A program made the translations under genes and the position numbers. 64,000 nt of DNA, from contig JAJDAO010000072.1 in the NCBI GenBank assembly GCA_029261835.1, forward strand, positions 74,841 to 138,840, written 5' to 3'. Positions 7,094 through 60,904 of this stretch are shown piece by piece. Positions within the stretch are counted from its first letter, which is position 1. Every line of letters starts with the position of its first letter. The notes beneath the pieces are model-generated. The model ran no database searches, was not told where the DNA came from, and worked only from the letters and a program-made list of their open reading frames with translations. The DNA comes from Deltaproteobacteria bacterium. Its GTDB lineage: Bacteria > Myxococcota_A > UBA9160 > UBA4427.

Positions 7094-7138
7094 GCTTTGC
7101 TCGCTTCCTCTGCGGCGACCTGCGGGCCGCTGCGCTGT

Positions 7139-8860
7139 TCAGGGGCGCCTGGCTGAGATCTTGCCTTCTTGCGGGATGTAGTACGGCGACGCGTACCACC
7201 ACTTGCCGGGCTCCGCGATTCCGTCTTCGATCAGGATGTGCATCAGGTTGTACGGAATGGCCATCAGGCAGAGTCCACCGGGATGGCCCGATGTCTGATG
7301 CGCGTGATACAGACCTTCGATCGGCGTGCGATAGCGGGCCAGCTCGGGCAGCGGCCGATTGGTCCAGAGCTGATCCTCATCGTGTCGGCTGCCGCACCAT
7401 GTGCCCCCGATGAGTCCGGTATTGCGAAACTCGATATCGCGACCCGTCGCGCTCCAATGGTGGATGAGGTTGTCGTCGTCGAGACCGTCCACCATCTGGC
7501 TGTAGGATTCGCGCATGAATCGGTCCATCTCGTCCTTGTGCCGATCGAGCGCGTCCTCGCCCTCCGTGTGGTAGTCCGGAGACGTCACGGCCATCTCGAA
7601 GGCATTCGAGATGTAGCCCCTTGGATAGCTGGCCTGGCAGTCCGTCGGGTCGAACGACTGTGGCGGTGTCTGGAACCAGAGTGCGCGCTCGGGCGGCACC
7701 GTCGGTTGCCCCTTGCGACCGTCCACGTCCCTCACGTTCTCGTAGTAGATCTCGCGAGAGTCGCACGGGTAGATGCCGAGGCCCGGCTGGCGGTTCTCGC
7801 CGACGTAGCGCGCCTCGCCGAGTTCCCGGAACCTCTCTTTGTACGTGAGCTGCTTCTTCGTGTGGAAGACCGATACGTAGAGTGTCTGATTCTTCAGGCT
7901 GATGTCCTTGATCGTGCGAATCAGGGCGGGGTCCAGGTGCTTCGGGCCGACCATCTTGAGGAATGCCTGATGTACATCGCAGGCGGCAATCACGGCCTTG
8001 TTGGCCCGAATCGTCTTGCCTCCCGCGGCCGCCGTCTCGCGCAGTCGCACCCCCACCGCGCGGCCGTCCTCGATCAGGATTTCGTCGACCGGGCAGCTCG
8101 TTCGGATCACGGCCCCGCGGTGCACGGCGGCGCGGTGAATGGCGTGGAAGTAGCCGTGCAAACCGCCCCGCGGAATGCTGTTCTTGCCGGTATTGGGCAG
8201 CGTCAGAAGCTGAACACAGAGTGCCGCCGGGATCGCCACACCCTCCCAGTGGCCGGCCGCTCCCGAAGCCCAAGCCGCAAAGGCCATGCCGGTCTTGAAC
8301 GGCTCGGTCTCGAGGTGTTCGTCCATCAGGTCGAACATCGTCATCTCGCGCAGCTCCGGCGTCCAGATGTCGGGCTGATGCTTCTTGTAGACCTGCATGT
8401 ACGGCGTGTTCTCATCCGTCACCTCGACGTCGGACGGATGCGGCGGACACCAGAACGTGGCGCGCAACAGCTCACGGGTGAACGGCGGCTGGCCCAGCAT
8501 TCCACCGATCTTGGCCCAGCCGAGCTTGTCCGCGTCCGAAATCGCACGCCAACCATCCGTGCACGCCAGACCTGCATTGGCGGCCTCCATCGGATTCGTC
8601 GGTTCCCACTCCATGCGGAAGCCGTACTTGTGGAGCTCGAGCTGCTCGAAACCCGGAGCCGCTGAGGCGTACATCAGCATGGCGTGCGGATAGATCCGCA
8701 CGCCGGGTATCGGTTCCTGGGTCTCGCAGGCGCCACCGCACTCGGTTCTCTCCTCGAGAACACAGACACTGAGCCCGCACTTGGCCAAGTAGGCGGCCGT
8801 CGTCATTCCGTTCGGACCCGCGCCCACGATGACGATGTCGAATCTCTCGTCCTTACCCAT
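7139..8860 (-). CDS. NAD(P)/FAD-dependent oxidoreductase, COG1233 family, paralogue 2
   Basis: 573 aa. DIVIVGAGPNGMTTAAYLAKCGLSVCVLEER; C-terminal YRTPIEGLYHAHQTSGHPGG. Confidence 0.9.
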   Translation of the reverse strand: MGKDERFDIVIVGAGPNGMTTAAYLAKCGLSVCVLEERTECGGACETQEPIPGVRIYPHAMLMYASAAPGFEQLELHKYGFRMEWEPTNPMEAANAGLACTDGWRAISDADKLGWAKIGGMLGQPPFTRELLRATFWCPPHPSDVEVTDENTPYMQVYKKHQPDIWTPELREMTMFDLMDEHLETEPFKTGMAFAAWASGAAGHWEGVAIPAALCVQLLTLPNTGKNSIPRGGLHGYFHAIHRAAVHRGAVIRTSCPVDEILIEDGRAVGVRLRETAAAGGKTIRANKAVIAACDVHQAFLKMVGPKHLDPALIRTIKDISLKNQTLYVSVFHTKKQLTYKERFRELGEARYVGENRQPGLGIYPCDSREIYYENVRDVDGRKGQPTVPPERALWFQTPPQSFDPTDCQASYPRGYISNAFEMAVTSPDYHTEGEDALDRHKDEMDRFMRESYSQMVDGLDDDNLIHHWSATGRDIEFRNTGLIGGTWCGSRHDEDQLWTNRPLPELARYRTPIEGLYHAHQTSGHPGGLCLMAIPYNLMHILIEDGIAEPGKWWYASPYYIPQEGKISARRP

Positions 8861-8928
8861 GGCTCTTCCTCCAATCTCTCAACCGAACGCGTACGGACCG
8901 TGCGCAGGCGGAGCCGATAACAAAAGCA

Positions 8929-10557
8929 TCAGATGTATCCTTCCTCACGCGCCGCTGTCACGTAGTCGAGCTCCTGCCACCACTTCTCGATTCCGAAGTC
9001 CTCAGCGATGGCGTTGGAGCAGTTGTATCCCGGTCCGAAGAGCACCATCCCACCCGGGGCCACACTCGCCCCTCCGAGGTACAACCCCTGAATCGGGGTC
9101 CGATAGTGGGAGCACTCGTCATTGGGCCTGAGGTACCCCATCTGAAGTGGTTGATAAGCGCCCTGCTTGTAGCTGCCCCGTACCATGTTGGCGAACTTGT
9201 TCTGGATATCAGCCGGCGTGGTGAGATAGGTCCACAGCACGTTGTCGGCGGACAGATTCGGCACGTACTGCCGCAGCAACGCGAGCCGTTGCTCGCTGAT
9301 CTCTTCGCGCGTCTCATGCGCGAGCCAGCGCTCGCTTCCTCCGTCGGCCAGATCGAACGGCGCCATCTGTGAGAGGAGCCCCGTGGCGCGACCCACGGGT
9401 GCCTGGAAGGAGTCATGGACGCTGGGGAAGCAGGCGTTGAAGCCGACATCGGCGGCAAGCCGGCCTTCTCTCATCGCCCCCCAGTGATCGAGCAGATCGC
9501 CGAGGCTCTCGTAGCCCATCAGATAGATGAAAGCTCGGTCGACTTCGGGCTCACTCTCGGCGGCGGCGAAGTGCGGAGGTTCGGCGAGTGCCAGATGGAG
9601 GTTGCAGAGGCTCCACTCCTCCCATTCCCAAGTGCGAAGACCCTCGACGAAGTCCCGCTCGAGGTTCTCCTCTCCAACGTAGGCGAGGAATGTCTGGTGC
9701 AGATCGATCGTGCTCACCACGGCCTTCTCGGCCGACAGGTGAGTGCCGTCCTGCATCTCCACCCCGCAAGCCCGTCCCCGCTCGACGACGATCCGCCGAA
9801 TCTCGGCTCCCGTTCGGATCTGCCCCCCGTGCTCGAAGATGCACTTGAGCAGTGCGTTCGAAACGCGGTGTGAGCCGCCGGCCGTGAGTCGGTAGTTCGC
9901 CATTCGATCCAGGTAGATGGGGACCATGTAGCTGACGCCCGACTGGTCGTGCTCGAGGCCCCAATGGCAGGCCATGTAGAGCATCAGCGTGCGAACATGA
10001 TCATCTTCGAACAGGTCGAAGACGATCTCCTGTGGTGTCTTCTCCGCGTACTCGGAGAGAGCGCGACCCAGCTCGGTTTCCTCTGCCCGAGCCGCCATCT
10101 CCAGAGCGCCCTCCATGGGAACGTAGGTCTGCGGAGCGAGAATGTGTCGCATCATGCGAGCGAAATCGTGCCGCATCTCGCGATAGCTCTCGGCGTCCCG
10201 CTTCGAGAAGCGCGCGATCGACTGGCACGACTTCTCGATGTCGCTGTGGATGCAGAGGCACCGCCCGTCTTTCAGCGGCATCGCAACTTGTGGCTCGGGC
10301 TGGATGTGCTTCACGCCGTAGCGGCTCTCCAACTCGAAGTCGCGGTAGACGGGCGCGTAGTCGACCATCATCTTGTAGATCGCGTGGGTGTTGTGATAGT
10401 ACTCGGGAAGCGTCACCTGCTCAGTCGCCAACCCCCCACCGGCTTCGAAACGCTTCTCGAGCAGCAAGACACGCTGCCCGGCACGGCTCAGGTACGCACC
10501 CGCCGCGAGCCCGTTGGGACCGCTACCGATGATGATGACATCGTAGCTCTGCGTCAT
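8929..10557 (-). CDS. NAD(P)/FAD-dependent oxidoreductase, COG1233 family, paralogue 3
   Basis: 542 aa. DVIIIGSGPNGLAAGAYLSRAGQRVLLLEKR; C-terminal YRTPIQGLYLGGASVAPGG. Its start overlaps the stop of paralogue 4 by 4 nt. Confidence 0.9.
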   Translation of the reverse strand: MTQSYDVIIIGSGPNGLAAGAYLSRAGQRVLLLEKRFEAGGGLATEQVTLPEYYHNTHAIYKMMVDYAPVYRDFELESRYGVKHIQPEPQVAMPLKDGRCLCIHSDIEKSCQSIARFSKRDAESYREMRHDFARMMRHILAPQTYVPMEGALEMAARAEETELGRALSEYAEKTPQEIVFDLFEDDHVRTLMLYMACHWGLEHDQSGVSYMVPIYLDRMANYRLTAGGSHRVSNALLKCIFEHGGQIRTGAEIRRIVVERGRACGVEMQDGTHLSAEKAVVSTIDLHQTFLAYVGEENLERDFVEGLRTWEWEEWSLCNLHLALAEPPHFAAAESEPEVDRAFIYLMGYESLGDLLDHWGAMREGRLAADVGFNACFPSVHDSFQAPVGRATGLLSQMAPFDLADGGSERWLAHETREEISEQRLALLRQYVPNLSADNVLWTYLTTPADIQNKFANMVRGSYKQGAYQPLQMGYLRPNDECSHYRTPIQGLYLGGASVAPGGMVLFGPGYNCSNAIAEDFGIEKWWQELDYVTAAREEGYI

Positions 10558-12281
10558 CGCCTGCCCTCCAGCAACGAGTCGCGCACGCGTCTGCGCACGA
10601 TCCTTTGCTGCTCGACAAGCGAGTCGGGCTCCTCTTTGCCGGGCTCCTCCCAGGGTTTGGCGAGCCCGAGGTCCTTGGCGATGATCTTGTAACAGTTATA
10701 TGCCTCGGTCGATCCGGCATTTGACCCCACGTGCCACGAGCCGCCGGTGGCGTAGAGCCGCTCGACGGGCGTGCGGTGGTTGGCCAGCTCCGGGGTGGGG
10801 CGATTCTCGGCGACCTGATGCGGCGGCCGGTCGACACCCGCCATGGTTCCGTTCGGTCCGAGGTTCTTCATGCGCGTGTGGTCGAAGGCGGTGTTGGTGT
10901 CGACGCCGATTACATTGTCCCATGTCATATTGGGCGCGTAGTCCTGCCAAATGGTGAGCAGCTCGTCCGCGTAGCGACGCTTGATTTCGAGCCACTGCCG
11001 CTCGCTATACGTCGTAGCTGGTGGACCAAGCTGCTCGTTCTGTACGACGTGCTTGCCCGGAGGCGCGAAGCTCGGGTCCACCAGACTGTGGCAGCCGACC
11101 GTGGGAGCGTAGTCCTCGAGCGGGGGGAACCTGCGAAGCTTCTGGTACAAGCACTCGCGGGAGATGTGGATCGGGTCGGGGTCGGGCTGCATGCCCAACC
11201 ACTGGCATTCGTGGATGTCCGGGTTGAAGGCCTCGGCCTTGTAGATCGGCGCCTGGTGGACAGCGAAGCTGTACCACATGAGACAGCCGAAGGTATCTTC
11301 CAGCAGTCGCACCCGCCTCTTCAACTGATCGCCGACGTGCTCCTCACCAATCAGATCGAATATGAGCTGGTGAGGTGAGAGCGTGCTCACGACCAGCTTT
11401 CGAGCTGCGATCTGGCTGCCGTCCGTCAACGTGATCCCGGTGGCGACACCGTTCTCGATGATCGCCTTGTCGACCTCGCTATTGGTGAAGAATTCGCACC
11501 CCATCTGCACCAGGAGCTGATGTGCAGCATGTGCGATCTGGTGGGTCCCGCCGCGGTTGAAGCCGATGGTGGGCAGAACCATGGCCATGCCCAGCAGACT
11601 CATGCCCAAGCCCGGCTCGTTGATGTCGATGACCGAGGAGACGGCGAACCGCAGGATGCAGGACTGAAGCTCTTGACTCTCGAACCACTCCCGCGAGGCG
11701 CGCAGCGTGCTCGCCTTCATCGTGAGGGAATCGGGGCCGAAGCCGGCTTCGATCAGCTTGGGGAACAGAGCGGCCTGTCGGGCGGCAACATCGGGTGTCG
11801 TCTGTTCTTCTACCGGGCGAAACAGCGTATCCGTGGTTACGCGCAACAGCTCTTCGCTCTGCGCGAGGTTCCAGAGGCGCCCCCAGGTGTCGGCGTCCCG
11901 CTGTGAGAAACGGGCGATCTCAGCGGCGGTTCTCTCCTGGGCGGGATCGTGCTTGCCACTGTAGATCGCCAGGCAGCTCTCGCTGTCCTTGAAGACGAAT
12001 CCGTCGCTGCAAGTGTGTTGCTCCCAGCGAGCACCGTAGTCCCAGAAATCGGGGAAATCGCGCCACACAGGCGCGTAGTACCAGGGCAGGATGATGTTGG
12101 CGTGCGTGTTGCCGCGAAACCCGGGCGCCGAGATTTCTTCCGTGGCGAGACAGCCCCCAATCTCGTGCCGCCGCTCGAATACGCCGACGCGCATTCCGCC
12201 GTATTTGACGAGGTACAGGGCGAGCAGGAGAGCCTTGTTCCCGCCGCCGACAATCACGGCATCGAACGTCTTGTCAGCCAT
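10554..12281 (-). CDS. NAD(P)/FAD-dependent oxidoreductase, COG1233 family, divergent paralogue 4
   Basis: ORF 10554..12749 trimmed to ATG 12281 (GAGGTG upstream). Begins MADKTFDAVIVGGGNKALLLALYLVKYGGMRVGVFERR; the 156 aa upstream are low-complexity. Confidence 0.85.
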   Translation of the reverse strand: MADKTFDAVIVGGGNKALLLALYLVKYGGMRVGVFERRHEIGGCLATEEISAPGFRGNTHANIILPWYYAPVWRDFPDFWDYGARWEQHTCSDGFVFKDSESCLAIYSGKHDPAQERTAAEIARFSQRDADTWGRLWNLAQSEELLRVTTDTLFRPVEEQTTPDVAARQAALFPKLIEAGFGPDSLTMKASTLRASREWFESQELQSCILRFAVSSVIDINEPGLGMSLLGMAMVLPTIGFNRGGTHQIAHAAHQLLVQMGCEFFTNSEVDKAIIENGVATGITLTDGSQIAARKLVVSTLSPHQLIFDLIGEEHVGDQLKRRVRLLEDTFGCLMWYSFAVHQAPIYKAEAFNPDIHECQWLGMQPDPDPIHISRECLYQKLRRFPPLEDYAPTVGCHSLVDPSFAPPGKHVVQNEQLGPPATTYSERQWLEIKRRYADELLTIWQDYAPNMTWDNVIGVDTNTAFDHTRMKNLGPNGTMAGVDRPPHQVAENRPTPELANHRTPVERLYATGGSWHVGSNAGSTEAYNCYKIIAKDLGLAKPWEEPGKEEPDSLVEQQRIVRRRVRDSLLEGRR

Positions 12282-12415
12282 TGCGACACCTCGCCCGGGC
12301 GGATTCGCAACCCGCCCGAGCCCGAGAGTCGAACCTGCGCGACCGTGGGACCCGTCGGCCGACAAGGAGCGCCCCGAGCTGGAGCGAAACCGACCGACAC
12401 CGCGATGGTAGCTGG

Positions 12416-12427
12416 CGAAAGCTTTCG
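12416..12427. promoter_or_regulatory. perfect 12-bp palindrome CGAAAGCTTTCG in the divergent intergenic region (candidate MarR operator)
   Basis: Read directly; lies between the COG1233 operon start (12281) and the MarR gene, next to a locally AT-rich stretch. Confidence 0.3.
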
Positions 12428-12537
12428 GGCAAGCTAAATTGTTGTTCTGTGGCTTTTTTCGCTGCCTCCAGCTAGGCGTCTGGGGGATCGGCGCAACCGG
12501 CCCGATCGGTGCGGTGCGTGGTAATGGTTGCGTGTTA

Positions 12538-13098
12538 ATGGTATTGACGATGGCGAAGCAGCAGCGCAGCTCGACGATGAGCCGGCCGGACGAGCCGGGG
12601 ATGGACTGGATCGACGAGCTCTCGGAAGCATGGGCTCGCGAGTACCCGGACGTCGACACCTCGACGCTGCCACCGATGCTGAGGCTGGTCCGACTGGGCG
12701 TGCTGATGACCACGTTCCAGCAGGAGACGCTCGAGCCCTTCCAACTCACACCGAGCGACTACGCCGTGCTATCGACACTGCGCCGCATGGGCCCGCCGTA
12801 CGAGCTCTCGCCGAGCGAGCTCTACACGGCACTCGAGCGATCCTCGGGCGGCATGACGAAGATGCTCAAGCGCCTCGAGCAGCTCGGCCTCGTGGAGCGC
12901 GCGCCCCACCCCGAAGATGGACGCGCCACGCTCGTCGCCCTCACGCCAGCAGGTGTCGAGCTGCAGGAGCAGATCTTCAAGGTCTTCCTGTCACATACGG
13001 AAGACCTCCTCAAGTCGATCTCACCCGCCAAGCTCCAGGAGATCGACGCCTCGCTGCGATCTCTGCTCGATGCGATCGAGAGCCACTTCTACCGATAG
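12538..13098 (+). CDS. MarR-family transcriptional regulator
   Basis: Winged-helix region LTPSDYAVLSTLRRMGPPYELSPSELYTALERSSGGMTKMLKRLEQLGLVERAPHPEDGRATLVALTPAG. Start ambiguous (ATG 12538, 12550 or 12577). Confidence 0.85.
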   Translation: MVLTMAKQQRSSTMSRPDEPGMDWIDELSEAWAREYPDVDTSTLPPMLRLVRLGVLMTTFQQETLEPFQLTPSDYAVLSTLRRMGPPYELSPSELYTALERSSGGMTKMLKRLEQLGLVERAPHPEDGRATLVALTPAGVELQEQIFKVFLSHTEDLLKSISPAKLQEIDASLRSLLDAIESHFYR

Positions 13099-17515: not shown

Positions 17516-18597
17516 CACAAGCGGCAGAGCTCCGCCGCGAGCTCGACGCGACGGGTCTGGCTGAATCCGACGGCAAAGGTCGGGATCCAGCACGAGTGTT
17601 TGCCGGCACCCCCCGCCACGAGCACTCTCAACAGCGCCGCTTCGCGAGCCAACGGAATCCTGCCGCGCCACTCGTCGAGCTGGTCCGCATAGCCACCCCA
17701 GGATGTGAGCTCGTCGAGCTTCTGCGCCGAAATCCGATCCAGCGGAACACGGGCGTGCTCGAATAGGTAGCCTTGCACGTCTTCGCGCGAGAAGCCCGAA
17801 TCGGCTACTGCCCGAGCGTGCTCCGGACCAAAGACCACGAAATGGTCGCCGCCGACATAGAGGTTGTTGTTGCCGACCGTAGCCATCGTCTGTGCCAGTG
17901 TGTTCAAGATCGACTCCCCGTCACAGGAGCCATGGTCATTGATATTGTGTGGCCCCTCGGCGGCCGCCACGGTGACGCAGGAGTCCTCGACCCCGAAGCC
18001 GAGCGTGGTGCGCAGAGCGGGCCACGGGCTCGCCTCTTCGTTCTCCGCAAAGCAGAAACCGAACTTGGCCGGGCTCCCCTGGGTCGCCTTGTCGGTCTCG
18101 CCCGCAATCGCCCCTCCGATATTCTGGAGCACGAGTCGCAGAGCACGGCCGATGCTCGCATTGGCCCGGTTACCCGGACCCATGCAGCCATGCCCGGCGT
18201 TCATGGCCAGCAAATCGGCGACCGGTCCATGTACGATTGCCAGCAGGCCACATGGATGGGTCGTGGTCTGCATTCCGATCAGGTTGAAGTCTCGCTCCTG
18301 AATCGCAGCGATCGCCGCTTCCAGCAGCGGCATGTGCTCGGGCAGGCAGCCGGCCATGACGGCGTTGGCGGCGACGCGCTGAAGCGTGGCGGTGCCATTG
18401 CGCGGCGACAGGTCACCCAAGCTCTCCATCGGGTAGTGACTCGCACCGTCGCACATGTCCTTTACGCGCCCTCGCGTCGGGATCACCACCGGCAGACCAT
18501 CCGTAAAGCCCCAGGCGTGCAGTTGCTCCAGCGCAGCAACATCATCGCCGTCGAACTCGATCTGCTCGGCCAACGGCGCGTCGTCTCGCCGACTCAC
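17515..18597 (-). CDS. conserved hypothetical protein (360 aa), partner of the UGSC selenoprotein
   Basis: Long GC3-biased ORF. GTG start overlaps the UGSC gene stop (GTGA). I recognise no family. Confidence 0.7.
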   Translation of the reverse strand: MSRRDDAPLAEQIEFDGDDVAALEQLHAWGFTDGLPVVIPTRGRVKDMCDGASHYPMESLGDLSPRNGTATLQRVAANAVMAGCLPEHMPLLEAAIAAIQERDFNLIGMQTTTHPCGLLAIVHGPVADLLAMNAGHGCMGPGNRANASIGRALRLVLQNIGGAIAGETDKATQGSPAKFGFCFAENEEASPWPALRTTLGFGVEDSCVTVAAAEGPHNINDHGSCDGESILNTLAQTMATVGNNNLYVGGDHFVVFGPEHARAVADSGFSREDVQGYLFEHARVPLDRISAQKLDELTSWGGYADQLDEWRGRIPLAREAALLRVLVAGGAGKHSCWIPTFAVGFSQTRRVELAAELCRL

Positions 18598-19130
18598 GAT
18601 TCGCCCCCACTCGACAACGCCGCGATCACGTCTTCGAGCACCTTGTCTGAAATCAGCGCAGCCGCCTGCTCGGGCGATATCCCGCCGACCGGATGTCGCA
18701 CCACGGCCAGCGGCAAAGCGCCGGCGTTGCGCTGCTCAAGCAACTGGCTGGCGAAATCCTGAAACGCATCGGTCACGAGGCCCACCACCGCACATCCCAT
18801 TCGCGCGAGCTCGATCTGGTCGTGGATACTCCACGACGTGCACGATCCTCAATCGTAGGCAGCCAACACCACGGCGTGACATGACTCGCCGCACTGACGG
18901 ATGAGTTCGGGTGCGGCCTCCAGAGAGGGAACGTCCTTCCGAAAGTGGCTCACCGTAACCCCAAAGCGCTCTCTCAGCCCCGCCGCGACCCGTTCCAGGA
19001 GCACGTCCGCGTTGGGCTTGTTGTTGCTGAAGAGTCCGATCTTCGCCCCCGCCAGACTCGTGAGCCGTTCGCCGAGCGTCTCGGGCGGAGGCGGACCGCT
19101 CGTGGGGTTGACGATCACGATTCTGCCCAT
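18594..19130 (-). CDS. UGSC-family selenoprotein; in-frame TGA at 18851-18849 read as Sec
   Basis: Track ORFs 18849..19130 and 18594..18800 are in the same frame (51 nt = 17 codons from the TGA to the second ATG). Read-through gives ...HAVVLAAYD-U-GSCTSWSIHDQIELARMGCAVVG..., containing the family-defining UGSC motif. GGGAGA SD precedes ATG 19130. Confidence 0.75.
18819..18837 (-). promoter_or_regulatory. candidate bacterial SECIS hairpin for the UGSC gene
   Basis: mRNA GUCGUGG-AGUAU-CCACGAC, a perfect 7-bp stem with a 5-nt loop, starting 11 nt after the UGA. An outer GAUC/GAUC pairing is possible. Confidence 0.55.
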
Positions 19131-24987: not shown

Positions 24988-26082
24988 TCAGCACCCGGCG
25001 AGCGCGCGAACATCGCCGAGCAGCGCGCTGATGTCCTGGTCCGACGTGTCCCAGGAGCACATGAAGCGGGCGCCGCCAGCCCCGATGAACGTGTAGAAGA
25101 CCCAGCCACGTTCACGCAGTCCATCGAGAACGGGGCTCGGGAGCTTGGCGAAGACGGAGTTCGCCTGGGCGGGAGCCAGGATCTCCACCCCGGGCACGTC
25201 GCGCAGGCCCGACTCGAGCCGCTGCGCACAGGCGTTGGCGTGCTTCGCGTGTTGGAGCCAACCGCCGTTCTCGAGTAGAGCGACCCACGGTGCCGCAATG
25301 AAACGCATCTTCGAGGCGAGCTGCCCGGCCTGCTTACAGCGGTACGCAAAGTCCTGAGCCAGCTCGCGGTCGAAGAAGACGACCGCGTCGCCCACCGCCA
25401 TGCCATTCTTCGTACCGCCGAAGCACAGTACATCCACGCCCACCTTCCAGGTCAGCTCCTTGGGTGCGACGTCGAGAGTCGCGACGGCGTTGGCGAAGCG
25501 TGCACCGTCCATGTGCAGTCGCAGTCCGAGCTGGCGCGCCGTCTCGGCAACGGCGTCCAACTCGCTCTTGTCGTAGACGGTTCCCAACTCGGTGGCCTGG
25601 GTGATGCTCAATACGCGCGGCTTCGGGTAGTGGATGTCCGTTCGACGCAATACGGTGTTTCTCACGTCGGCGAGATCGACCTTGCCCCGCTCGCCAGCCG
25701 CGAGCAAGACCTTGGTGCCGTTCGAGAAGAACTCCGGCCCGCCACACTCGTCGGTCTCGAGATGCGCGGTCTGGTGGCAGATGATGCTGTGGTAGGACTC
25801 GCACAGAGCCGCCAGGCTGAGCGAGTTGGCGGCCGTGCCGTTGAATACGAAGAAGACCTCACAGTCGATCTCGAAGACCTCGCGCAGCAGCTCGCAGGCT
25901 CGCTGGGTCCAAGCGTCCTCGCCGTAGGCGGGAGCGAAGCCGCTCTTGGCCCTCTCGAGCGCGGCCCATGACTCCGGGCAGATTCCGGCTGCGTTATCGC
26001 TGGCAAACTGCAGCCGCTGGCGCTCCAGCGAGACCGCGGCGCCGGTCGTGGGGTCGCCCTGCTCACCCGCCTGGGCCGTCAT
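24988..26082 (-). CDS. ltaE: low-specificity L-threonine aldolase (PLP enzyme)
   Basis: ORF 24988..27105 trimmed to ATG 26082. FASDNAAGICPE, FNGTAANSL, CFGGTKNG (PLP lysine). Confidence 0.8.
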   Translation of the reverse strand: MTAQAGEQGDPTTGAAVSLERQRLQFASDNAAGICPESWAALERAKSGFAPAYGEDAWTQRACELLREVFEIDCEVFFVFNGTAANSLSLAALCESYHSIICHQTAHLETDECGGPEFFSNGTKVLLAAGERGKVDLADVRNTVLRRTDIHYPKPRVLSITQATELGTVYDKSELDAVAETARQLGLRLHMDGARFANAVATLDVAPKELTWKVGVDVLCFGGTKNGMAVGDAVVFFDRELAQDFAYRCKQAGQLASKMRFIAAPWVALLENGGWLQHAKHANACAQRLESGLRDVPGVEILAPAQANSVFAKLPSPVLDGLRERGWVFYTFIGAGGARFMCSWDTSDQDISALLGDVRALAGC

Positions 26083-26214
26083 GCAAGTCAGAGTACCGCA
26101 AACGACGAGGGTCTGCGGATCAGATGCAAAGGGCGGTCTTGTGTCTGGCGTGGGCCTCGAATAGTCTGAAGCGAGTGTCGCAATCGGCGTGGGAGCGAAG
26201 CCAGGAGAATAGAC

Positions 26215-27294
26215 GTGCCGCACATCCGCACCGTCCCGCCGAGTCGAGCCGATGCAGAAACAGCATCGACCTACCGCTACATGAAGGAGGTCGGGGGCTC
26301 CTCGCAGGCGGCGAACATCGTGCAACTCTTCAGCCTCCGCCCGGCGTCCATGCGACGGATGATCCGGAGCTGGGAGCTCGCACTCTGGTGCGGCCATGAG
26401 CCGCGATCGAACCGCGAGCTGATCGCGGCAGCCGTCTCTCGCTATGCAGATTGTCACTACTGAACGGATGGCCACGAGGCCTTCCTGCAGGCTGCAGGAG
26501 GAGACGCGAGCCGGGTTGCGCGCCTGATCGATGGCACGACGACCGACGCGACACCTCTCGAGCGAGCGCTGGTGGCACTCGCGAAGAAGGCCCACGAGCA
26601 GCCTCGCCACCTCACGCCGGCGGATCTCGATCCCCTGCGAGCGATCGTTGGAGCGGGCGCGCTCGACTACGCGTTCGTGCTCGGGTCGTTCCACTTCATC
26701 AACCGGATGGCCGATTTGCTCGACGTGAGCTCCGAGGCCCTCCCCGCACCCCTGCGGCGCCTCGAACTGGTCCGGAGGCTGGCAACCCGGCTGCAGGGCA
26801 TCCTGCTGCGCAAGATGATGAACCTCGAGAATCGCGCCTACGGCAGAAGCTACGAAGAGGTCGTCGCGGCCATCGCGCCGGCCTATCGAGAGGCGTTGGG
26901 GTGCGAGCCGGGGGAGGCGTTTGCGCGCCTGCGCGAGCGACCGCAGATCATCGAAGCGCTGCAGCTCATGCTGGAAGAGCGCTTGGAGAGAAGCAGCCTC
27001 CAGCACACCGTGATGGTGGACCTTCACCGCATCGTCGAAGAGGCACTGCCGAATAGGCCCGAGGACCTGGAGGGCTTCCACGAGCGCCCCGCCGATCCCG
27101 TTCACGCGCTTGCATTCGTCGGTACGCGCTATGCCAGCCGGACGACAAAGCAGATGATCGATGCCCTGCGTCTCGCGGGCTATGACGACCTCGGCATCCT
27201 CGACCTGGCCATTGCAATCGCGGACGCCAACAATTGGGCGCGGCTGCGCCGCCTTACAGGCCTTTCAGCGGGCATCGGTTGCGTCGCCGTGTGA
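26215..27294 (+). CDS. AhpD/carboxymuconolactone-decarboxylase-like selenoprotein; in-frame TGA at 26461-26463 read as Sec
   Basis: Track ORFs 26215..26463 and 26572..27294 are in the same frame (357 nt apart) with no other stop between. Read-through gives ELIAAAVSRYADCHY-U-TDGHEAF, which is E-x11-C-x2-U-x3-H, the AhpD core motif E-x11-CxxC-x3-H with Sec at the second Cys. AGGAG lies 7 nt before GTG 26215. Confidence 0.75.
26481..26501 (+). promoter_or_regulatory. candidate bacterial SECIS hairpin for the AhpD-like gene
   Basis: CUUCCUGC-AGGCU-GCAGGAGG, an 8-bp stem (one G.U pair) with a G-containing 5-nt loop, starting 17 nt after the UGA. Confidence 0.5.
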
Positions 27295-38223: not shown

Positions 38224-39280
38224 TCCGCTGCGAAGTATCGTGCAGGCGCTGGCGGGGGGGGCGACGCTGGTGGCGGTCATCGCTGGGCTCTCTGGAGGCT
38301 GCGGCGAGCGCATTGCACCCGACGACCCGGTGCCCGAGGCGGCAGCACCGACCAGCTCCCGCGAGCTTGTCGAGGTCGTCGAGCAACAGACCGCACGTTT
38401 CGAGCAAGCCAGCGGCACCATCTTCTCGGCGCGGCATGCGACGGTTTCGTCGAAGATACTGGCGCGGATCGAGGAGATCCCGGTGCGGGCGGGTGATGAA
38501 ATCCGCAAAGGCGCGCTCGTGGTGCGGCTGGACAGCCGCGATCTTCAGGCCCGGCTGCAGGCGGCGCGCGAGGACGCTGCCGCCGCGCGGGCGTCACTCG
38601 AGCTGGCGCATTCCGAGCGGGAGCGCGTGACCGGTCTCTATCAGTCGAAGGTCGCGTCGCGCCAACAGCTCGATCGTGCGAGGGCCAGCCAGCAAGTCGC
38701 GATGGCCGCACTCGAACGGGCGGAGCAGAGCGTCGCAACTGCTGAGGTGGCGGTCTCGCACAGCGAGATCCGCTCACCGGTCGCCGGGCGCGTGATCGAC
38801 CGTCTGGCCGAGCCGGGCGACACGGCAGCGCCGGGCGTGCCGCTGCTGCGTGTCTACGACCCGGGCACCATGCGACTCGAAGCGCCCGTTCGAGAGGGAC
38901 TCGCGACGCGGCTGACACCGGGTCGCCGGCTGCGGGTTCACGTTGAAGCAATCGATCTCGGGCTCACTGGCGAGATCGAAGAGATCGTGCCAGCCGCTGA
39001 GCCCGGCGCGCGCACCTTCCTGGTCAAGGTGCGCCTGCCCGACGATCCGCGCTTGTTCGCCGGCATGTTCGGTCGCGTCGAGATTCCGGCCGGCACTGTG
39101 CGGCGGCTCTTGCTGCCCGCCGAGGCCGTCGAGCGTATCGGCCAGCTCGAATTCACCATGGTCGTGGCCGAGGACGGTCACGCACACAGACGCCTCGTCA
39201 CCACCGGACCCGCACCGCAGCCGGGCTCCGTCGAGATTCTGAGCGGCTTGACAGGTGGGGAACGGATCGCACTACCGTGA
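38216..39280 (+). CDS. RND efflux periplasmic adaptor (membrane fusion) lipoprotein
   Basis: ORF 38150..39280 trimmed to ATG 38216 (AGGAG 7 nt upstream; overlaps the RND stop as ATGAATAG). Lipobox LSGGC; coiled-coil hairpin; SPVAGRVI lipoyl-like motif. Confidence 0.85.
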   Translation: MNSPLRSIVQALAGGATLVAVIAGLSGGCGERIAPDDPVPEAAAPTSSRELVEVVEQQTARFEQASGTIFSARHATVSSKILARIEEIPVRAGDEIRKGALVVRLDSRDLQARLQAAREDAAAARASLELAHSERERVTGLYQSKVASRQQLDRARASQQVAMAALERAEQSVATAEVAVSHSEIRSPVAGRVIDRLAEPGDTAAPGVPLLRVYDPGTMRLEAPVREGLATRLTPGRRLRVHVEAIDLGLTGEIEEIVPAAEPGARTFLVKVRLPDDPRLFAGMFGRVEIPAGTVRRLLLPAEAVERIGQLEFTMVVAEDGHAHRRLVTTGPAPQPGSVEILSGLTGGERIALP

Positions 39281-42076
39281 GTTGACGCTCGCCCCGCGAT
39301 CGACGGGCGCGATGTCGACCCGCACCGCGCGGTCGATGGGAACCGGCTGCCAGTGCAGCGCGCGATAGCGGAGATGACCGTAGCCGCCCGCGAGGTGCAG
39401 CCACTTGACCATGCCCGGCTCGATATTCGAAAAATCCTGCCAGCCTTCGAATTGATACGGCTCGAAGCCGTTGTACATGATCATCTGCCCGGGCTGCACG
39501 GCCGGTGTCACCCGCGCCTGAACGACGAGGGAAGCGAGATCGTTGAAGACGCGCATGGGGGCCCCGTTCTCGATTCCCCGGGCGGCTGCATCATTGTCGT
39601 TGATGTGCGCGACGGGCTCACCGCGAATCGTACCCAGAATGATACGACTCGTGCTGTTCATGGAGTTGACGCTCCAACGGGGGTGCCCGCTGGTGATCTG
39701 GAAGGGATGATCGCCTCCCTGGGCCGGCGCCTCCTTGTGGACCGGCAACTCCTCACCCGCCTCCAGGAACCACTCGTGGTCGATGTAGAACTGGGCGCGG
39801 CGCGTGAGTGTCGGGAAGGGCTCCTTCTTCTCGGTCTGCCAGCGAAATGGTGAGTGTGTCTCGTTCGGTAGCAGATCCGAGGCCTGGGCCAACGCCATCG
39901 GTGAGCGGCCCCAACCGGTAAAGCGCACCCAACCCGTCTCGCGCAGCGTCTCGAGGCTGGTTCCCTCCGGCAGGTTTCCCAGCACGACCGAGTCGCGCAC
40001 CATCTCGTCGATCACCGCGTCGTCGTCCGCCAGTGCGCCATCGAAGGAGATCTCCTCGTACAGCCGATCGAGCCGGACCGATTCGCCGTTCGGCTTGACC
40101 ATCTCCGCCAGACCGCGCGCTTTGGCTCGCTCGGAGAGCTTCTTGGCGAGCAGCAGCGTGAACTGCCACTCGGTGCGCACGTCTTCGGGCGGGTCCACGG
40201 CGCGATCCGACAGCGTTAGGTTCATGACGTCGGGTGTCGTGTAGGGAAAGTTGGGCTTCTCGTAGTGCTGCGCCGCGGGCAGCACGATGTCCGAATACAG
40301 GCCGGTGGTGGACATGCGCCAGTCCATCGAGACGATCAGCTTCAGCTTGGGCCAGAGATGCTCGAGCAGCATGCGCTGTCCGCCCCGTTGGCGCCGGAGC
40401 AGGTTGCCACCGATCTCGAAGAGGACGCGGGGCGGCTTGTCGGGCGGCGGCTGGACGGTCCCCTGCCACCAGCCTTTCTCCTCGGCCTCCTGAATGTAAT
40501 CGTCGAAGGAGCGACGCATGGCCGGGTCGTTCCAGTCGGCTTTGTTCCACGCCTCGCGATAGCCGCAGTGGTGATACCAGAAGAAGGCGGAGGGCACTGC
40601 GCCCATCGGGAGCAGGCCCAGGTAGCTCAGCTCCGAAATCGCAATCTCCTCGGTAAGCGTGGGATCCTGTGCCAGGAAGCCGTCCATCATCGCCTGCTGT
40701 CCCTGGGCGATCTCCTCGGTGGCCTGCTGGCCCGGGCGCGGCTTGCCCGAGAGAATGAACGGACCGTCGAACATGCCCACGGCCCAGCTGCGGATTCCGG
40801 CTCCCTTCTTGCCCCAGTTGCCCGTGAGCGCGAGCAGCAGACACATGGCCCGCTCCATCAGATCGCCGTGATAGGCCTTGCCGGTCGTCCAGCCCAGAAG
40901 GATCCGCGTGCGACTGCGCGCTGTCTTGCGAGCCAGCTCGCGAATCGTGTCCGGATGAGCGCCGCACAGCGCCGAGGCCTGCTCCGGACCGTAGTCCTCG
41001 AGCAAGCGGCGCAGCAGCACGAACACCGGCTCTACGTCCACCGCCTCGCCGTCGCACAGCGTGGCGCTGTAGCTGCCCTCCAAGGCCGGCTCCAGCCCGG
41101 CGAGATCGAGCGTGCGCGGCGCCTCGGCAATCGCGCCGCTGCGCGTGTCGAAGAGGTGGAAGACGGTGTCGGAGCCGCCCTGCTGGAGATCACACTGACG
41201 CAGGAAGCGCCCGTTATCGCGGCGCACGAGCAGCGCGAGGTCCGTCTGCTCTCGCACGAAGTCCTCGTCCACCAGCCCCTCGTCGACGATCACGCGGCAC
41301 ATCGAGAGCGCAAGGGCGGCGTCCGAGCCGATTCGCACGGGCACGAAGTGATCACCGTGGATGGCCGAAGGGCTGTAGTCGGGCGCGATGGTCACGACCT
41401 GGCTGCCGTTGTAGCGAGCCTCGACGATGTAGTGGTACCAGGGAATCGCGCTGTAGGCGGGGTTGTTGGCCCAGATGAGCAACAGTTCGGAGTGGAACCA
41501 GTCGTCGCTGCTCGGCACCGGATCGAAGCGGCCGAAGGTCGCATAGAGACCGGGATTGAAGTCGTTGATCTCGGACTGCACATCGGTCGAGGTCGTGCCG
41601 AGGCGCTGAAAGACGTTGTTGGCCAGCACCATGCTCTGCGTGCCGCCCTCACCGGGCGTGCCGATCTTGACGATCGTCTCCGGACCCGACTCCTGGATGG
41701 CATCGAGCATGGCATCGGCGATCTCGCCGAGCGCCGCATCCCAGGAAATGGGCTCGAAGCGACCCTCTCCGCGCTCGCCGACGCGGCGCAGCGGATGGAG
41801 CACGCGCTCCTTGCCGTAGAGCATCGTGCTCCAGGAGGCGCCCTTCTGGCAGCCAGCCGGATTCATGTCCGGCACACCCTCCTCGACCGACTCGAAGTTG
41901 CCAGCCGCCTCTTCGCGCACGACGCGGCCGTCTCGCACATAGACGCGATGTGGACAGTTGCTCGGATAGCAGTCGACGCAGTGGCAGCCCCACGCCATGT
42001 CGTCCCACTTCCACTTGTCGCGATATGCATTCGCCCAGCGGCCGGCAATGCTTGGCCGCGCCACATGCTCTGCCAT
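39272..42076 (-). CDS. molybdopterin-dependent oxidoreductase catalytic subunit, NarG/EbdA-like, no signal peptide
   Basis: ORF trimmed to ATG 42076 (AAGGGGA SD). N-terminal Cys cluster WGCHCVDCYPSNC...GCQKG; TIAPDYSPSA; about 45 percent identical by eye to ORF 49569..52448. Confidence 0.85.
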   Translation of the reverse strand: MAEHVARPSIAGRWANAYRDKWKWDDMAWGCHCVDCYPSNCPHRVYVRDGRVVREEAAGNFESVEEGVPDMNPAGCQKGASWSTMLYGKERVLHPLRRVGERGEGRFEPISWDAALGEIADAMLDAIQESGPETIVKIGTPGEGGTQSMVLANNVFQRLGTTSTDVQSEINDFNPGLYATFGRFDPVPSSDDWFHSELLLIWANNPAYSAIPWYHYIVEARYNGSQVVTIAPDYSPSAIHGDHFVPVRIGSDAALALSMCRVIVDEGLVDEDFVREQTDLALLVRRDNGRFLRQCDLQQGGSDTVFHLFDTRSGAIAEAPRTLDLAGLEPALEGSYSATLCDGEAVDVEPVFVLLRRLLEDYGPEQASALCGAHPDTIRELARKTARSRTRILLGWTTGKAYHGDLMERAMCLLLALTGNWGKKGAGIRSWAVGMFDGPFILSGKPRPGQQATEEIAQGQQAMMDGFLAQDPTLTEEIAISELSYLGLLPMGAVPSAFFWYHHCGYREAWNKADWNDPAMRRSFDDYIQEAEEKGWWQGTVQPPPDKPPRVLFEIGGNLLRRQRGGQRMLLEHLWPKLKLIVSMDWRMSTTGLYSDIVLPAAQHYEKPNFPYTTPDVMNLTLSDRAVDPPEDVRTEWQFTLLLAKKLSERAKARGLAEMVKPNGESVRLDRLYEEISFDGALADDDAVIDEMVRDSVVLGNLPEGTSLETLRETGWVRFTGWGRSPMALAQASDLLPNETHSPFRWQTEKKEPFPTLTRRAQFYIDHEWFLEAGEELPVHKEAPAQGGDHPFQITSGHPRWSVNSMNSTSRIILGTIRGEPVAHINDNDAAARGIENGAPMRVFNDLASLVVQARVTPAVQPGQMIMYNGFEPYQFEGWQDFSNIEPGMVKWLHLAGGYGHLRYRALHWQPVPIDRAVRVDIAPVDRGASVNSR

Positions 42077-42261
42077 GCTCGATCCCCTTTCGAAACGCCA
42101 GCGTAGCAAGGCGCCCGCTCAGCACGCCGATGCAGCGCGGCTCGGCGCCCGCACGCTTTTCGCTTTACCCATCTTCGTAGAAGTGATAGGTAGTACATAT
42201 CACTTTTCCTTCCCGGATGCAGCGGGTACGAGGCAGTCCGGGCAACGGGCGGACGAGTCGG

Positions 42262-53732: not shown

Positions 53733-53734
53733 GC

Positions 53735-54586: not shown

Positions 54587-54616
54587 TCGCCCTTCCCGAT
54601 CGCCACGCCCGCCCGC

Positions 54617-55405: not shown

Positions 55406-55444
55406 GACTTCCCGCCCTTCCCCACTGCGCTGCGTCTCGCCCGA

Positions 55445-56743: not shown

Positions 56744-56746
56744 GGC

Positions 56747-57892: not shown

Positions 57893-58093
57893 CGACGCTC
57901 CTCCGTCTGTGGGTTGCGGTGAGCTGGTCGCCCGGCTCACGACGTCTGCTGAGCCTCCATCCTCTCACGATACGCGGACCCGGTTCGGCGAACATCGTCC
58001 ATATTGACTATCCGGGGCCTTGCGCCGCAAGCTGCGAGCGGCGGACGTAGCGCCCCGCCTTGCGAGTGCCGGCCCAGTGATACAATCCCCGGC

Positions 58094-60147: not shown

Positions 60148-60241
60148 CCCCGCTTGGCGGACGAGCCCACCGGGCGACGGGAGGGGTTTATGAGATAGCT
60201 TCTCGTGTCTCAGGTGAGTTCTGCGAGAACTGGAGGTGCTG

Positions 60242-60883: not shown

Positions 60884-60904
60884 TCCGTCTCGGAGGAGCA
60901 CAGC

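What the first reader, a model, noticed from the sequence alone, without database searches (positions are those of the whole stretch)
26215..27294. AhpD/CMD-like selenoprotein with a CxxU redox motif and a long second domain
An 82-aa ORF ends ...ELIAAAVSRYADCHY at a TGA, then continues in frame for 277 further codons with no other stop. The junction reads E-x11-C-x2-U-x3-H, the AhpD-core signature E-x11-CxxC-x3-H with Sec replacing the second Cys. An 8-bp stem with an AGGCU loop lies 17-40 nt after the UGA.

The recoded protein is 359 aa, about twice a normal CMD protein. The C-terminal half looks like a second, Cys-less CMD-like repeat (…ALAFVGTRYASRTTKQMIDALRLAGYDDLGILDLAIAIADANNWARL).
Basis: partly seen in the sequence, partly recalled or inferred. 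Interest (0 to 1): 0.6.

Follow-up and report, generated by a model that had tools for sequence, protein, structure and literature searches.

The report
Two-lobed AhpD-like selenoprotein gene
This is a genuine selenocysteine-encoding gene for an AhpD-type redox enzyme that public annotation splits into two pieces; the kind of protein is well known, but this version carries a second, degenerate copy of its own fold, giving it a layout like human Sestrin.

Summary
Window 26215-27294 (+) is one 359-codon gene whose in-frame TGA (26461-26463) encodes selenocysteine in a C80-H-Y-U83 motif, with E68 and H87 at AhpD-core spacing. The Pfam CMD match runs across the TGA. Full-length homologues have Cys at exactly that position. 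In 22 of 23 related genome loci the TGA is conserved. A hairpin 18-40 nt downstream meets all four published bacterial SECIS criteria. Its codons show almost no synonymous variation in 23 Sec forms, unlike all 126 other conserved degenerate columns, and the hairpin is lost in all three Cys forms with DNA. A second selenoprotein gene (UGSC family, 18594-19130, minus strand) lies in the same window, so this organism very likely decodes Sec. The C-terminal half has no detectable sequence similarity to CMD domains, but its predicted fold is a diverged AhpD-like lobe. The whole protein best matches human Sestrin2, a pseudo-dimer of two AhpD-like lobes with only the N-lobe redox-active. AhpD-like CxxU selenoproteins have been known since 2005. 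This is a new member of a known kind, in a small, mostly Sec-containing, systematically mis-annotated two-lobed subfamily.

The parts
26215..27294 (+). Complete recoded coding sequence: 359 aa including Sec83, with a terminal TGA stop at 27292-27294
   Evidence: The frame is open apart from the TGA at 26461. Full-length Cys homologues of 352-373 aa align end to end. tblastn matches residues 1 to about 350 in 23 genome loci.
26203..26207 (+). Shine-Dalgarno-like AGGAG, 7 nt before the GTG start at 26215
   Evidence: Read directly from the sequence. The start is supported by homologues beginning M-[AP]-[FHY]-I at the same position.
26215..26739 (+). N-lobe (residues 1-175): catalytic AhpD-like domain
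   Evidence: TIGR01926 covers residues 16-172 at 73.8 bits. phmmer to solved structures gives 2OYO 9e-12, 6K40 1e-9, 3C1L and 2PRR. The family profile to 6K40 gives 4.5e-18.
26416..26475 (+). Active-site segment: E68 (26416-18), C80 (26452-54), Y82 (26458-60), U83 (26461-63), H87 (26473-75)
   Evidence: The spacing is identical to E74/C86/Y88/C89/H93 of PDB 2PRR as described in PMC4674687. These columns are invariant in the Cys forms.
26461..26463 (+). UGA selenocysteine codon (Sec83)
   Evidence: Homologues P0002-P0010 have Cys here. TGA is present in 22 of 23 genome loci and also in L002 and L028.
26481..26501 (+). Bacterial SECIS hairpin: stem 26481-26489 / 26493-26501, GGC triloop (or AGGCU loop closed by A-U)
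   Evidence: All four bSECIS criteria of PMC13188914 are met: a 3-5 nt loop, an 8-9 bp stem, loop pattern A-G-G-C-U, 25-26 nt from UGA to loop, and MFE -13.7 kcal/mol. Codons 90-94 have about zero synonymous entropy in 23 Sec forms, against a mean of 1.42 bits elsewhere with 0 of 126 columns at zero. The hairpin is absent in Cys forms L018, L026 and L027.
26740..27291 (+). C-lobe (residues 176-359): diverged AhpD-like lobe with no conserved Cys; conserved motifs AFVGTRYAxR and GYDDLGILDLAIAxADANxWAR
   Evidence: The AlphaFold model has pLDDT 90.4. All top 30 Foldseek PDB hits are AhpD/CMD-fold proteins at TM 0.4-0.55. It has no Pfam or PDB sequence match. Only 68 representative clusters carry it, and none in another architecture.

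Best explanation
Window 26215-27294 (+) is a single gene for a 359-aa selenoprotein of the AhpD-like (CMD-fold, TIGR01926-type 'peroxidase-related') class.

Shown or strongly supported: the UGA at 26461 is a selenocysteine codon. It is followed 18-40 nt downstream, inside the coding sequence, by a conserved SECIS hairpin, the type of element that bacterial SelB-Sec-tRNA(Sec) uses for Sec insertion. The gene's own terminal UGA has no such element and terminates translation.

Inferred: the product has two all-helical lobes. The N-lobe carries the redox centre C80-H-Y-U83 with the proton-relay residues E68, Y82 and H87. Sec83 occupies the position of the second Cys of the AhpD CxxC motif. Its selenolate attacks a hydroperoxide, or an oxidised sulfur on a partner protein or substrate. 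The selenenic acid or mixed intermediate is resolved by Cys80 into an intramolecular selenenylsulfide, which a cellular thiol reductant then reduces.

The C-lobe is a degenerate duplicate of the same fold that has lost the redox motif. Fused in one chain, it probably takes the place of the second subunit of the homodimers formed by single-lobe relatives, as in Sestrin2. Its strongly conserved polar residues (R305, Y306, R309, D324, D325, N339, W341, R343) suggest it also contributes a binding surface.
For: Gene model:
- The CMD domain spans the TGA. The AhpD core domain scores above its cutoff and TIGR01926 covers residues 16-172.
- Nine full-length homologues have Cys at the TGA position.
- More than 100 'truncated' homologues of 235-290 aa begin just after it.
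- 22 of 23 genome loci from Binatia, Myxococcota, Desulfobacterota and the Olavius Delta-1 symbiont carry TGA at that codon, at 38-62% protein identity.

SECIS:
- The hairpin is invariant, with near-zero synonymous variation, and is the unique minimum along the gene.
- RNAalifold predicts a 7-bp consensus stem.
- The hairpin is present in all 24 TGA forms (mean MFE -12.5 kcal/mol) and lost in all 3 Cys forms.
- It fits the published bSECIS model.

Sec decoding in this organism:
- A second gene in the window has TGA inside the eponymous U-G-S-C motif. Pfam UGSC scores 121 bits across that TGA, and a perfect 8-bp hairpin starts 11 nt downstream.

Fold:
- The full-length model has pLDDT 94.4 and pTM 0.93.
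- Sestrin2 is the top hit over 364-388 columns. Single-lobe AhpD enzymes cover about half of the model.
- The C-lobe alone hits only AhpD/CMD folds.
- Catalytic residues correspond to 2PRR and AhpD.

The class is established in the literature: PMC1088965, PMC2398784, PMC1976440 and PMC13188914.
Against: - No tRNA-Sec, selA, selB or selD lies in the 64-kb window, and the rest of the genome could not be searched.
- The hairpin does not vary, so there is no covariation support. As a single sequence it folds no better than shuffled controls.
- No Rfam family matches.
- TIGR01926 scores just below its cutoff (73.8 against 81.8).
- Nothing is known experimentally about the substrate, the reductant or the role of the C-lobe. 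No conserved neighbouring gene points to a partner.
- The full-length structural model is of a 56%-identical Cys homologue, not of the window protein itself.
Confidence: 0.9

Rival explanations
1. The gene model and Sec insertion are the same, but the chemistry is not peroxide reduction. The CxxU centre acts on another substrate, for example reductive dehalogenation as in the CMD-fold debrominase Bmp8, or reduction of a specific protein or small-molecule disulfide. In this reading the C-lobe supplies substrate specificity.
For: Bmp8 (6OHJ, 6OHI) is among the structural hits for both the whole protein and the C-lobe. The CMD fold hosts several different chemistries. The C-lobe has many invariant polar residues. 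No AhpC/Prx partner is conserved nearby.
Against: The closest sequence relatives with solved structures are annotated as AhpD or peroxidase-related enzymes (6K40, 2OYO, 3C1L, 2PRR). The full E/C/Y/C/H proton-relay set of alkylhydroperoxidases is kept.
Confidence: 0.15
2. There are two separate genes, as in public annotation: an 82-aa ORF (26215-26463) and a 240-aa ORF (26572-27294, protein P0001). The TGA is an ordinary stop.
For: Public gene calls split the locus this way. A GTG start exists at 26572.
Against: A single CMD domain and the AhpD core run across the TGA. The 108 nt between the two calls are conserved in frame as protein. Cys homologues are single ORFs. The nucleotide-level constraint sits exactly where a SECIS belongs.
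Confidence: 0.03
3. It is a pseudogene: a Cys codon (TGC or TGT) mutated to TGA, leaving a dead gene whose frame is still open by chance in GC-rich DNA.
For: Long accidental ORFs do occur here (the 705-codon antisense ORF). One relative, L002, carries a frameshifting 7-nt duplication.
Against: The same TGA is present in 24 independent genes at 38-62% protein identity, with purifying selection on both sides. Cys forms are the minority and are scattered across the tree. The SECIS is intact in the window.
Confidence: 0.03
4. UGA is read as another amino acid (Trp or Gly) because the organism uses an alternative genetic code.
For: One database protein (P0004) shows Trp at this position.
Against: P0004's codon is TGA and the protein does not translate under code 11, so this is a gene-caller artefact. 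The window has 64% GC and many of its genes end in TGA, including this one. In-frame TGAs with coding signal on both sides and an adjacent redox motif occur only at the two selenoprotein motifs.
Confidence: 0.01

Closest known systems
AhpD-like CxxU selenoproteins of bacteria (TIGR01926 / COG2128 / PF02627 types; Zhang and Gladyshev 2005-2008; BSepDB 2026)
   Same: CMD/AhpD fold. Sec sits in a CxxU motif replacing the second Cys. Cys homologues exist. The SECIS lies in the coding sequence just after the UGA. Occurrence in Deltaproteobacteria-type lineages, including the Olavius Delta-1 symbiont.
   Different: It is about 360 aa rather than about 180 aa, because of a fused second, redox-dead lobe. 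It scores just below the TIGR01926 cutoff. It forms a small separate subfamily (68 representative clusters) in which Sec, not Cys, is the majority state.
Single-lobe 'peroxidase-related' AhpD-type enzymes with solved structures (2PRR YP_296737.1, 2OYO, 6K40 D. radiodurans AhpD, 3C1L, 2PFX)
   Same: The N-lobe aligns significantly by sequence (up to 4.5e-18) and by fold (target TM 0.64-0.75). The E/C/Y/C/H catalytic set has identical spacing.
   Different: Those proteins have Cys-Cys, consist of a single lobe, and assemble as homo-oligomers. Here the second Cys is Sec, and a degenerate lobe is fused in the same chain.
Eukaryotic Sestrin2 (PDB 5DJ4, 5T0N, 5CUF; Pfam PA26)
   Same: It is the best full-length structural match (E about 1e-5, 364-388 aligned columns, TM about 0.55). 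Both have two AhpD-like lobes in one chain, with the redox motif kept only in the N-lobe and lost in the C-lobe.
   Different: No sequence similarity is detectable: there is no PA26 Pfam hit and no Sestrin hit with single-sequence or profile searches at E up to 10. The global rmsd is large (10-16 A). Sestrin keeps only the first Cys, whereas this protein keeps both positions, with Sec at the second. An independent duplication is at least as likely as common descent.
NF041238 AhpD_rel_CFYUT alkylhydroperoxidase-related (seleno)protein ('hypothetical protein 1' of the Sargasso Sea)
   Same: Similar length (357-position model). It has a CxxU motif of the form C-F/H-Y-U-T and is AhpD-related.
   Different: It scores only 50 bits against a cutoff of 175. 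In that model the AhpD-like part lies at positions 175-329, the C-terminal half, while here it is the N-terminal half. The architecture is therefore different.
Mycobacterium tuberculosis AhpD (1GU9, 1KNC)
   Same: It shares the core motif E-x11-C-x2-C-x3-H. The family profile matches AhpD residues 113-158 (E = 0.0096).
   Different: The relationship is distant. The motif sits at a different place in the chain and the oligomeric context differs (PMC4674687). No AhpC partner gene lies nearby.

Membership tests
Pfam CMD (PF02627) | Score at or above the gathering threshold of 23 bits | tested here: met
   34.3 bits over residues 43-124, profile positions 1-83 of 84, on the read-through protein. 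The 82-aa ORF alone scores only 15.3 bits. All 9 Cys homologues match.
AhpD core domain (TIGR00778) | Score at or above 27.8 bits, with the signature E-x11-CxxC-x3-H | tested here: met
   35.4 bits over residues 63-105. E68, C80, U83 and H87 are read directly from the sequence, with U at the second Cys position.
TIGR01926 peroxidase-related enzyme (the model cited for 'AhpD-like protein' selenoproteins) | Score at or above 81.8 bits | tested here: not met
   73.8 bits over residues 16-172 against profile positions 12-174 of 178. This is the best NCBIfam hit, with near-complete coverage, but it falls 8 bits short.
NF041238 AhpD_rel_CFYUT (seleno)protein | Score at or above 175 bits, with the same domain order | tested here: not met
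   50.1 bits. The query's residues 31-167 align to model positions 175-329, so the lobes are in the opposite order.
Bacterial selenoprotein gene | In-frame UGA aligned with Cys in homologues and conserved as UGA in other genomes | tested here: met
   Nine Cys homologues. TGA is present in 22 of 23 genome loci and also in L002 and L028.
Bacterial selenoprotein gene | bSECIS: 3-9 nt apical loop, 4-16 bp stem, G in the first two loop positions, 16-37 nt from UGA to loop, MFE at or below -7.5 kcal/mol | tested here: met
   Loop A-GG-C-U or GGC, stem 8-9 bp, spacing 25-26 nt, MFE -13.7 kcal/mol (criteria from PMC13188914). Synonymous sites are frozen in Sec forms, and the element is lost in Cys forms.
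Bacterial selenoprotein gene | Sec machinery (selA, selB, selC, selD) present in the genome | not testable with these tools
   None lies within the 64 kb, and the rest of the genome is not available. Indirect support comes from a second selenoprotein gene (UGSC family) in the window.
Bacterial selenoprotein gene | Selenium actually incorporated into the protein | not testable with these tools
   This needs 75Se labelling or mass spectrometry.
Sestrin (Pfam PA26, PF04636) | Sequence match to the PA26 profile or to Sestrin chains | tested here: not met
   No PA26 hit at E up to 1. No Sestrin chain appears in phmmer or hmmsearch against the PDB at E up to 10.
Sestrin (architecture only) | Two AhpD-like lobes in one chain, with the redox motif only in the N-lobe | tested here: met
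   Foldseek places Sestrin2 top over the full length. The C-lobe alone has an AhpD/CMD fold. The C-lobe has no conserved Cys.
Tandem CMD-CMD repeat detectable by sequence | A second CMD or AhpD profile match, or a significant internal repeat | tested here: not met
   Pfam finds one CMD domain only. HHalign of N versus C gives E 0.02-0.05 at under 3% probability. The C-lobe has no PDB sequence match.

The most novel reading that the evidence does not exclude
The two-lobed family is a bacterial counterpart of Sestrin in more than appearance. It would be a fused AhpD pseudo-dimer in which the redox-dead C-lobe has acquired a ligand- or partner-binding role that is coupled to the Sec-dependent redox centre, making it a redox sensor or regulator rather than a simple peroxidase. 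It might share ancestry with the duplication that gave rise to eukaryotic Sestrins.
Probability: 0.08. Interest if true: 0.65.

Novelty: new member of a known kind. Interest (0 to 1): 0.3.

Why it matters
AhpD-like CxxU selenoproteins are among the most common bacterial selenoprotein families, so the main claim adds a member rather than a concept. Three points have practical value.

1. This roughly 360-aa subfamily is split or truncated in essentially every public annotation. More than 100 database clusters start just after the TGA, and one caller even wrote Trp there. No curated Pfam or NCBIfam model captures it. A dedicated model with the Sec position marked would correct many records.

2. 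Sec is the majority state and apparently the ancestral one, with several independent switches to Cys, each accompanied by loss of the SECIS. That makes the family a compact natural data set for studying Sec/Cys exchange and SECIS constraint on coding sequence.

3. The Sestrin-like layout of two AhpD lobes in a bacterial protein offers a simple model for how a duplicated redox domain is repurposed.

Tried and rejected
- Rfam at gathering thresholds over the whole window, and permissively over 26400-26600, found nothing relevant. There is no usable Rfam model for this SECIS.
- The single-sequence fold of the region is not better than shuffles. It was replaced by the comparative test.
- RNAalifold covariation is uninformative because the stem is invariant.
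- HHalign of the N half against the C half was too weak to call an internal repeat. The question was settled by structure instead.
I modelled the closest natural Cys homologue (P0006) and, separately, the window's own C-lobe.
- Conserved gene neighbourhood: nothing recurs in more than 4 of about 28 loci, so there is no inferred partner.
- Promoter and terminator scans found nothing.
- The source organism could not be identified. The listing of cluster members gave no accession or name for P0001, and the window's genome is not among the GTDB species representatives returned.
- The same-frame ORF pair at 5405-8878 (minus strand) was examined as a possible second recoding site and rejected. These are two tandem genes, the second with its own start.
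- Other TGA-interrupted frames, at 37042 and at 38594/38774, were not pursued: 37042 lies antisense to the RND pump gene, and 38594/38774 lie at or beyond the end of a small ORF with no family match. None has a redox motif beside the TGA.
- The 705-codon minus-strand ORF over 24988-27105 is real only up to about 26082 (Beta_elim_lyase). The rest is an antisense shadow of the selenoprotein gene.
Full report
OBSERVATION

A GTG at 26215, preceded by AGGAG at 26203-26207, opens an 82-codon ORF that ends ...ELIAAAVSRYADCHY at TGA 26461-26463. The same frame then runs for 276 more codons to a TGA stop at 27292-27294. The junction reads E68-x11-C80-x2-[TGA]83-x3-H87. The hairpin CUUCCUGC-AGGCU-GCAGGAGG lies at 26481-26501.

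These facts alone are weak evidence. The window is 64% GC, a 705-codon antisense ORF overlaps the same region, and the local RNA fold is no better than shuffled sequence (z = -0.39). The case therefore rests on comparative evidence.

ONE GENE, NOT TWO

- On the read-through protein (U written as C), Pfam CMD matches residues 43-124 against profile positions 1-83 of 84, at 34.3 bits (cutoff 23). The match runs straight across the TGA. The 82-aa ORF alone scores 15.3 bits, and the downstream part alone gives no CMD hit.
- NCBIfam places the AhpD core domain TIGR00778 above its cutoff (35.4 against 27.8). TIGR01926 'peroxidase-related enzyme' covers residues 16-172 at 73.8 bits, just under its cutoff of 81.8.
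- A search of 5.8 billion proteins returned two classes of hit. About ten were full-length proteins of 352-373 aa with a CMD domain. More than a hundred were 235-290-aa proteins covering only the C-terminal 60-75% of the query.
- The full-length proteins read C-H-Y-C-T-D-A-H-E where the window has C-H-Y-TGA-T-D-G-H-E.
- Several 'short' proteins start at the codon right after that position, which suggests gene callers stopped at a Sec codon.

CONSERVED TGA

- A scan of one genome per GTDB species returned 23 loci. They come from Binatia, Myxococcota, Desulfobacterales/Thermodesulfobacteriota, unclassified 'Deltaproteobacteria', one Gammaproteobacteria MAG and the Olavius Delta-1 symbiont. tblastn matched residues 1 to about 350 in one frame.
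- Twenty-two of the 23 have TGA at the aligned codon, and one (L018) has TGC.
- An unrelated 5.3-Mb contig (L002) also has the TGA.
- The one database protein with Trp at this position (P0004) turns out to have TGA in its DNA.

SECIS

- In all TGA forms, the 14 nt CTGCAGGCTGCAGG, 21-34 nt after the TGA, are essentially invariant (one substitution, in L024). Neighbouring codons wobble freely.
- In a codon alignment of 23 Sec forms, codons 90-94 (TTC CTG CAG GCT GCA) have near-zero codon entropy. None of the 126 other conserved, degenerate columns reaches zero (mean 1.42 bits). This stretch is the unique minimum along the gene.
- RNAalifold gives a 7-bp consensus stem with a GGC triloop. Because the stem is invariant, there is no covariation.
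- All 24 TGA forms fold this hairpin at the same offset (mean -12.5 kcal/mol). The three Cys forms with DNA available (L018, L026, L027) have lost it, even where the peptide is nearly unchanged, as in L026 with F-L-Q-A-V.
- At the protein level, none of the nine Cys forms keeps L-Q-A-A.
- The hairpin meets every criterion of the published bacterial SECIS model (PMC13188914). The loop is 3-9 nt, the stem 4-16 bp, the loop pattern N1-G-[G/U]-N-N2 is met by A-G-G-C-U, the spacing of 25-26 nt lies within 16-37, and the MFE of -13.7 kcal/mol is below -7.5.

DOES THIS ORGANISM DECODE SEC?

- The window has no tRNA gene and no Rfam hit. A Pfam/NCBIfam pass over about 45 candidate genes found no selA, selB or selD. 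That is uninformative for a 64-kb sample.
- The pass did reveal a second selenoprotein gene. On the minus strand, ATG 19130 opens a frame reading ...AAYD-TGA(18851-18849)-GSCT... that continues for 84 codons.
- The read-through protein matches Pfam UGSC at 121 bits over profile positions 15-171 of 172. The 93-aa ORF alone scores 46 bits over positions 3-90. NCBIfam 'UGSC family (seleno)protein' is the best hit.
- A perfect 8-bp hairpin with a GUA loop starts 11 nt after that UGA.
- A systematic scan for TGA-interrupted coding frames found redox motifs next to the TGA only at these two sites.
- Two independent selenoprotein genes in one window make Sec decoding very likely.

THE SECOND HALF

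By sequence, the C-terminal 184 residues match nothing:
- no Pfam family;
- no credible PDB chain;
- only a sub-significant HHalign match of residues 307-353 to residues 130-174 of the N half (E 0.02-0.05);
- a few weak profile hits to the last helices of CMD proteins.

By structure, the picture is clear:
The model has pLDDT 94.4 and pTM 0.93, and is all-helical.
- Foldseek against the PDB puts human Sestrin2 first (5T0N, 5DJ4, 5CUF; E about 1e-5, 364-388 aligned columns, TM about 0.55). Single-lobe AhpD-type enzymes (6K40, 2PRR, 3C1L, 2OYO, 2PFX) follow, covering only about 170-200 columns.
- The window's own C-lobe, modelled alone (pLDDT 90.4), has AhpD/CMD-fold proteins as all of its top 30 hits (probability 0.90-1.00, TM 0.4-0.55).
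- The Sestrin2 structure paper describes the same logic. Sestrin2 has two lobes, each resembling 2PRR, which together mimic the 2PRR homodimer. The redox motif is retained only in the N-lobe (PMC4674687).
- That paper lists the 2PRR catalytic set as E74, C86, Y88, C89 and H93. The window protein has E68, C80, Y82, U83 and H87 at identical spacing. phmmer and profile alignments to 2OYO, 6K40, 3C1L, 2PRR and M. tuberculosis AhpD confirm the register.
- No Sestrin or PA26 similarity is detectable by sequence. The resemblance is architectural and does not show common descent.

FAMILY SIZE AND HISTORY

- An exhaustive HMMER search of 1.84 billion representatives with the C-lobe found only 68 clusters at E <= 1e-3. 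None has a different architecture.
- Among the roughly 21 representatives of 240 aa or more, 2 are full-length Cys forms and about 19 show the truncated Sec pattern.
- A rough NJ tree, without bootstrap, places the Cys forms in at least four clades nested among Sec forms. The most divergent members are Sec forms. This suggests Sec is ancestral, with repeated replacement by Cys.
- The window's nearest relative is a Myxococcota chromosome (L006, 62% identity).
- No neighbouring gene is conserved. In the window, the gene sits between a divergent threonine-aldolase-like gene and a convergent SDR gene, with a MarR regulator and a sulfatase beyond.

MECHANISM

Shown:
- the gene model;
- the Cys/Sec correspondence;
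- the constraint on the SECIS;
- the two-lobe fold (predicted).

Inferred from established AhpD chemistry and the Sestrin2 work:
- The Sec83 selenolate attacks a hydroperoxide or an oxidised partner.
- Cys80 resolves the intermediate to a selenenylsulfide.
- The relay through H87, E68 and Y82 assists proton transfer, and a thiol system recycles the enzyme.
- The C-lobe replaces the partner subunit of a dimer. Given its invariant polar residues, it may also shape a binding site.
- A different substrate chemistry, such as Bmp8-like dehalogenation, cannot be excluded.

NOVELTY

- AhpD-like proteins with CxxU were reported as selenoproteins in 2005 (PMC1088965).
- They rank among the most abundant families in ocean metagenomes (PMC2398784).
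- Seven genes of this kind are reported in the Olavius symbiont metagenome, five of them in Delta-1 (PMC1976440).
- Current reviews and BSepDB list them.
- The finding is therefore correct but belongs to a known kind.
- I could not find two things in the searchable literature: this specific two-lobed, Sestrin-like subfamily, and its near-universal mis-annotation.
- No curated model reaches threshold for the subfamily as a whole.

Noticed in passing
window 18594-19130 (minus strand); TGA at 18849-18851; hairpin about 18819-18837: This is a second selenoprotein gene, of the UGSC family. An in-frame TGA sits inside the U-G-S-C motif (…AAYD-U-GSCT…), giving a 178-aa read-through protein. Pfam UGSC scores 121 bits across the TGA, and NF041046 scores 109.9 (cutoff 125). 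A perfect 8-bp hairpin with a GUA loop starts 11 nt after the UGA. A 360-aa ORF with no family match follows immediately (17518-18597, minus strand).
   Followed up: partly
L002 10020-10045 (ENA ERZ26166939, contig_3, 5.3 Mb): A relative of the gene carries a 7-nt duplication (GGCTGCA) inside the SECIS hairpin, which shifts the frame after ...EAFLQAAG. This is either an assembly error in a palindromic repeat or a decayed copy.
   Followed up: partly
Database proteins P0001, P0009 and P0011-P0120; L028 595-597: The family is systematically mis-annotated. More than 100 clusters are called as 235-290-aa proteins starting after the Sec codon, usually with a separate 82-aa ORF upstream. One record (P0004) translates the TGA as Trp.
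   Followed up: yes
window 24988-27105 (minus strand): This 705-codon ORF is real only for its last 364 codons (24991-26082, a Beta_elim_lyase / threonine-aldolase-like gene). The upstream 340 codons are an antisense shadow of the selenoprotein gene. Simple longest-ORF gene calling would pick the wrong strand here.
   Followed up: yes
window 5408-12749 (minus strand): Four consecutive paralogous FAD/amine-oxidase-like (phytoene-desaturase-type) genes of 542-731 aa lie in tandem. The first pair is in the same frame, separated by a single TGA, but the second gene of that pair has its own start, so there is no recoding.
   Followed up: partly
window 39275-42109, 49572-52448 and 52920-57940 (all minus strand); 60236-62029 (plus strand): The window holds a set of anaerobe-type genes: two molybdopterin oxidoreductases of about 950 aa (neither interrupted by TGA), a BcrAD/BadFG ATPase with two HGD-D subunits (benzoyl-CoA-reductase / 2-hydroxyacyl-CoA-dehydratase type), a CdhC-like protein, a ParA/NifH-like ATPase, a corrinoid protein and an OYE flavoenzyme. 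This fits an anaerobic or facultative lifestyle typical of Sec-rich lineages.
   Followed up: no
window 27292-27294, and the terminal stops of L003, L005, L011-L013, L015, L016, L019 and L021-L024: The selenoprotein gene itself ends with TGA in the window and in about half of its relatives. The same codon therefore means Sec at position 83 and stop at the end of the gene, distinguished only by the local hairpin.
   Followed up: partly
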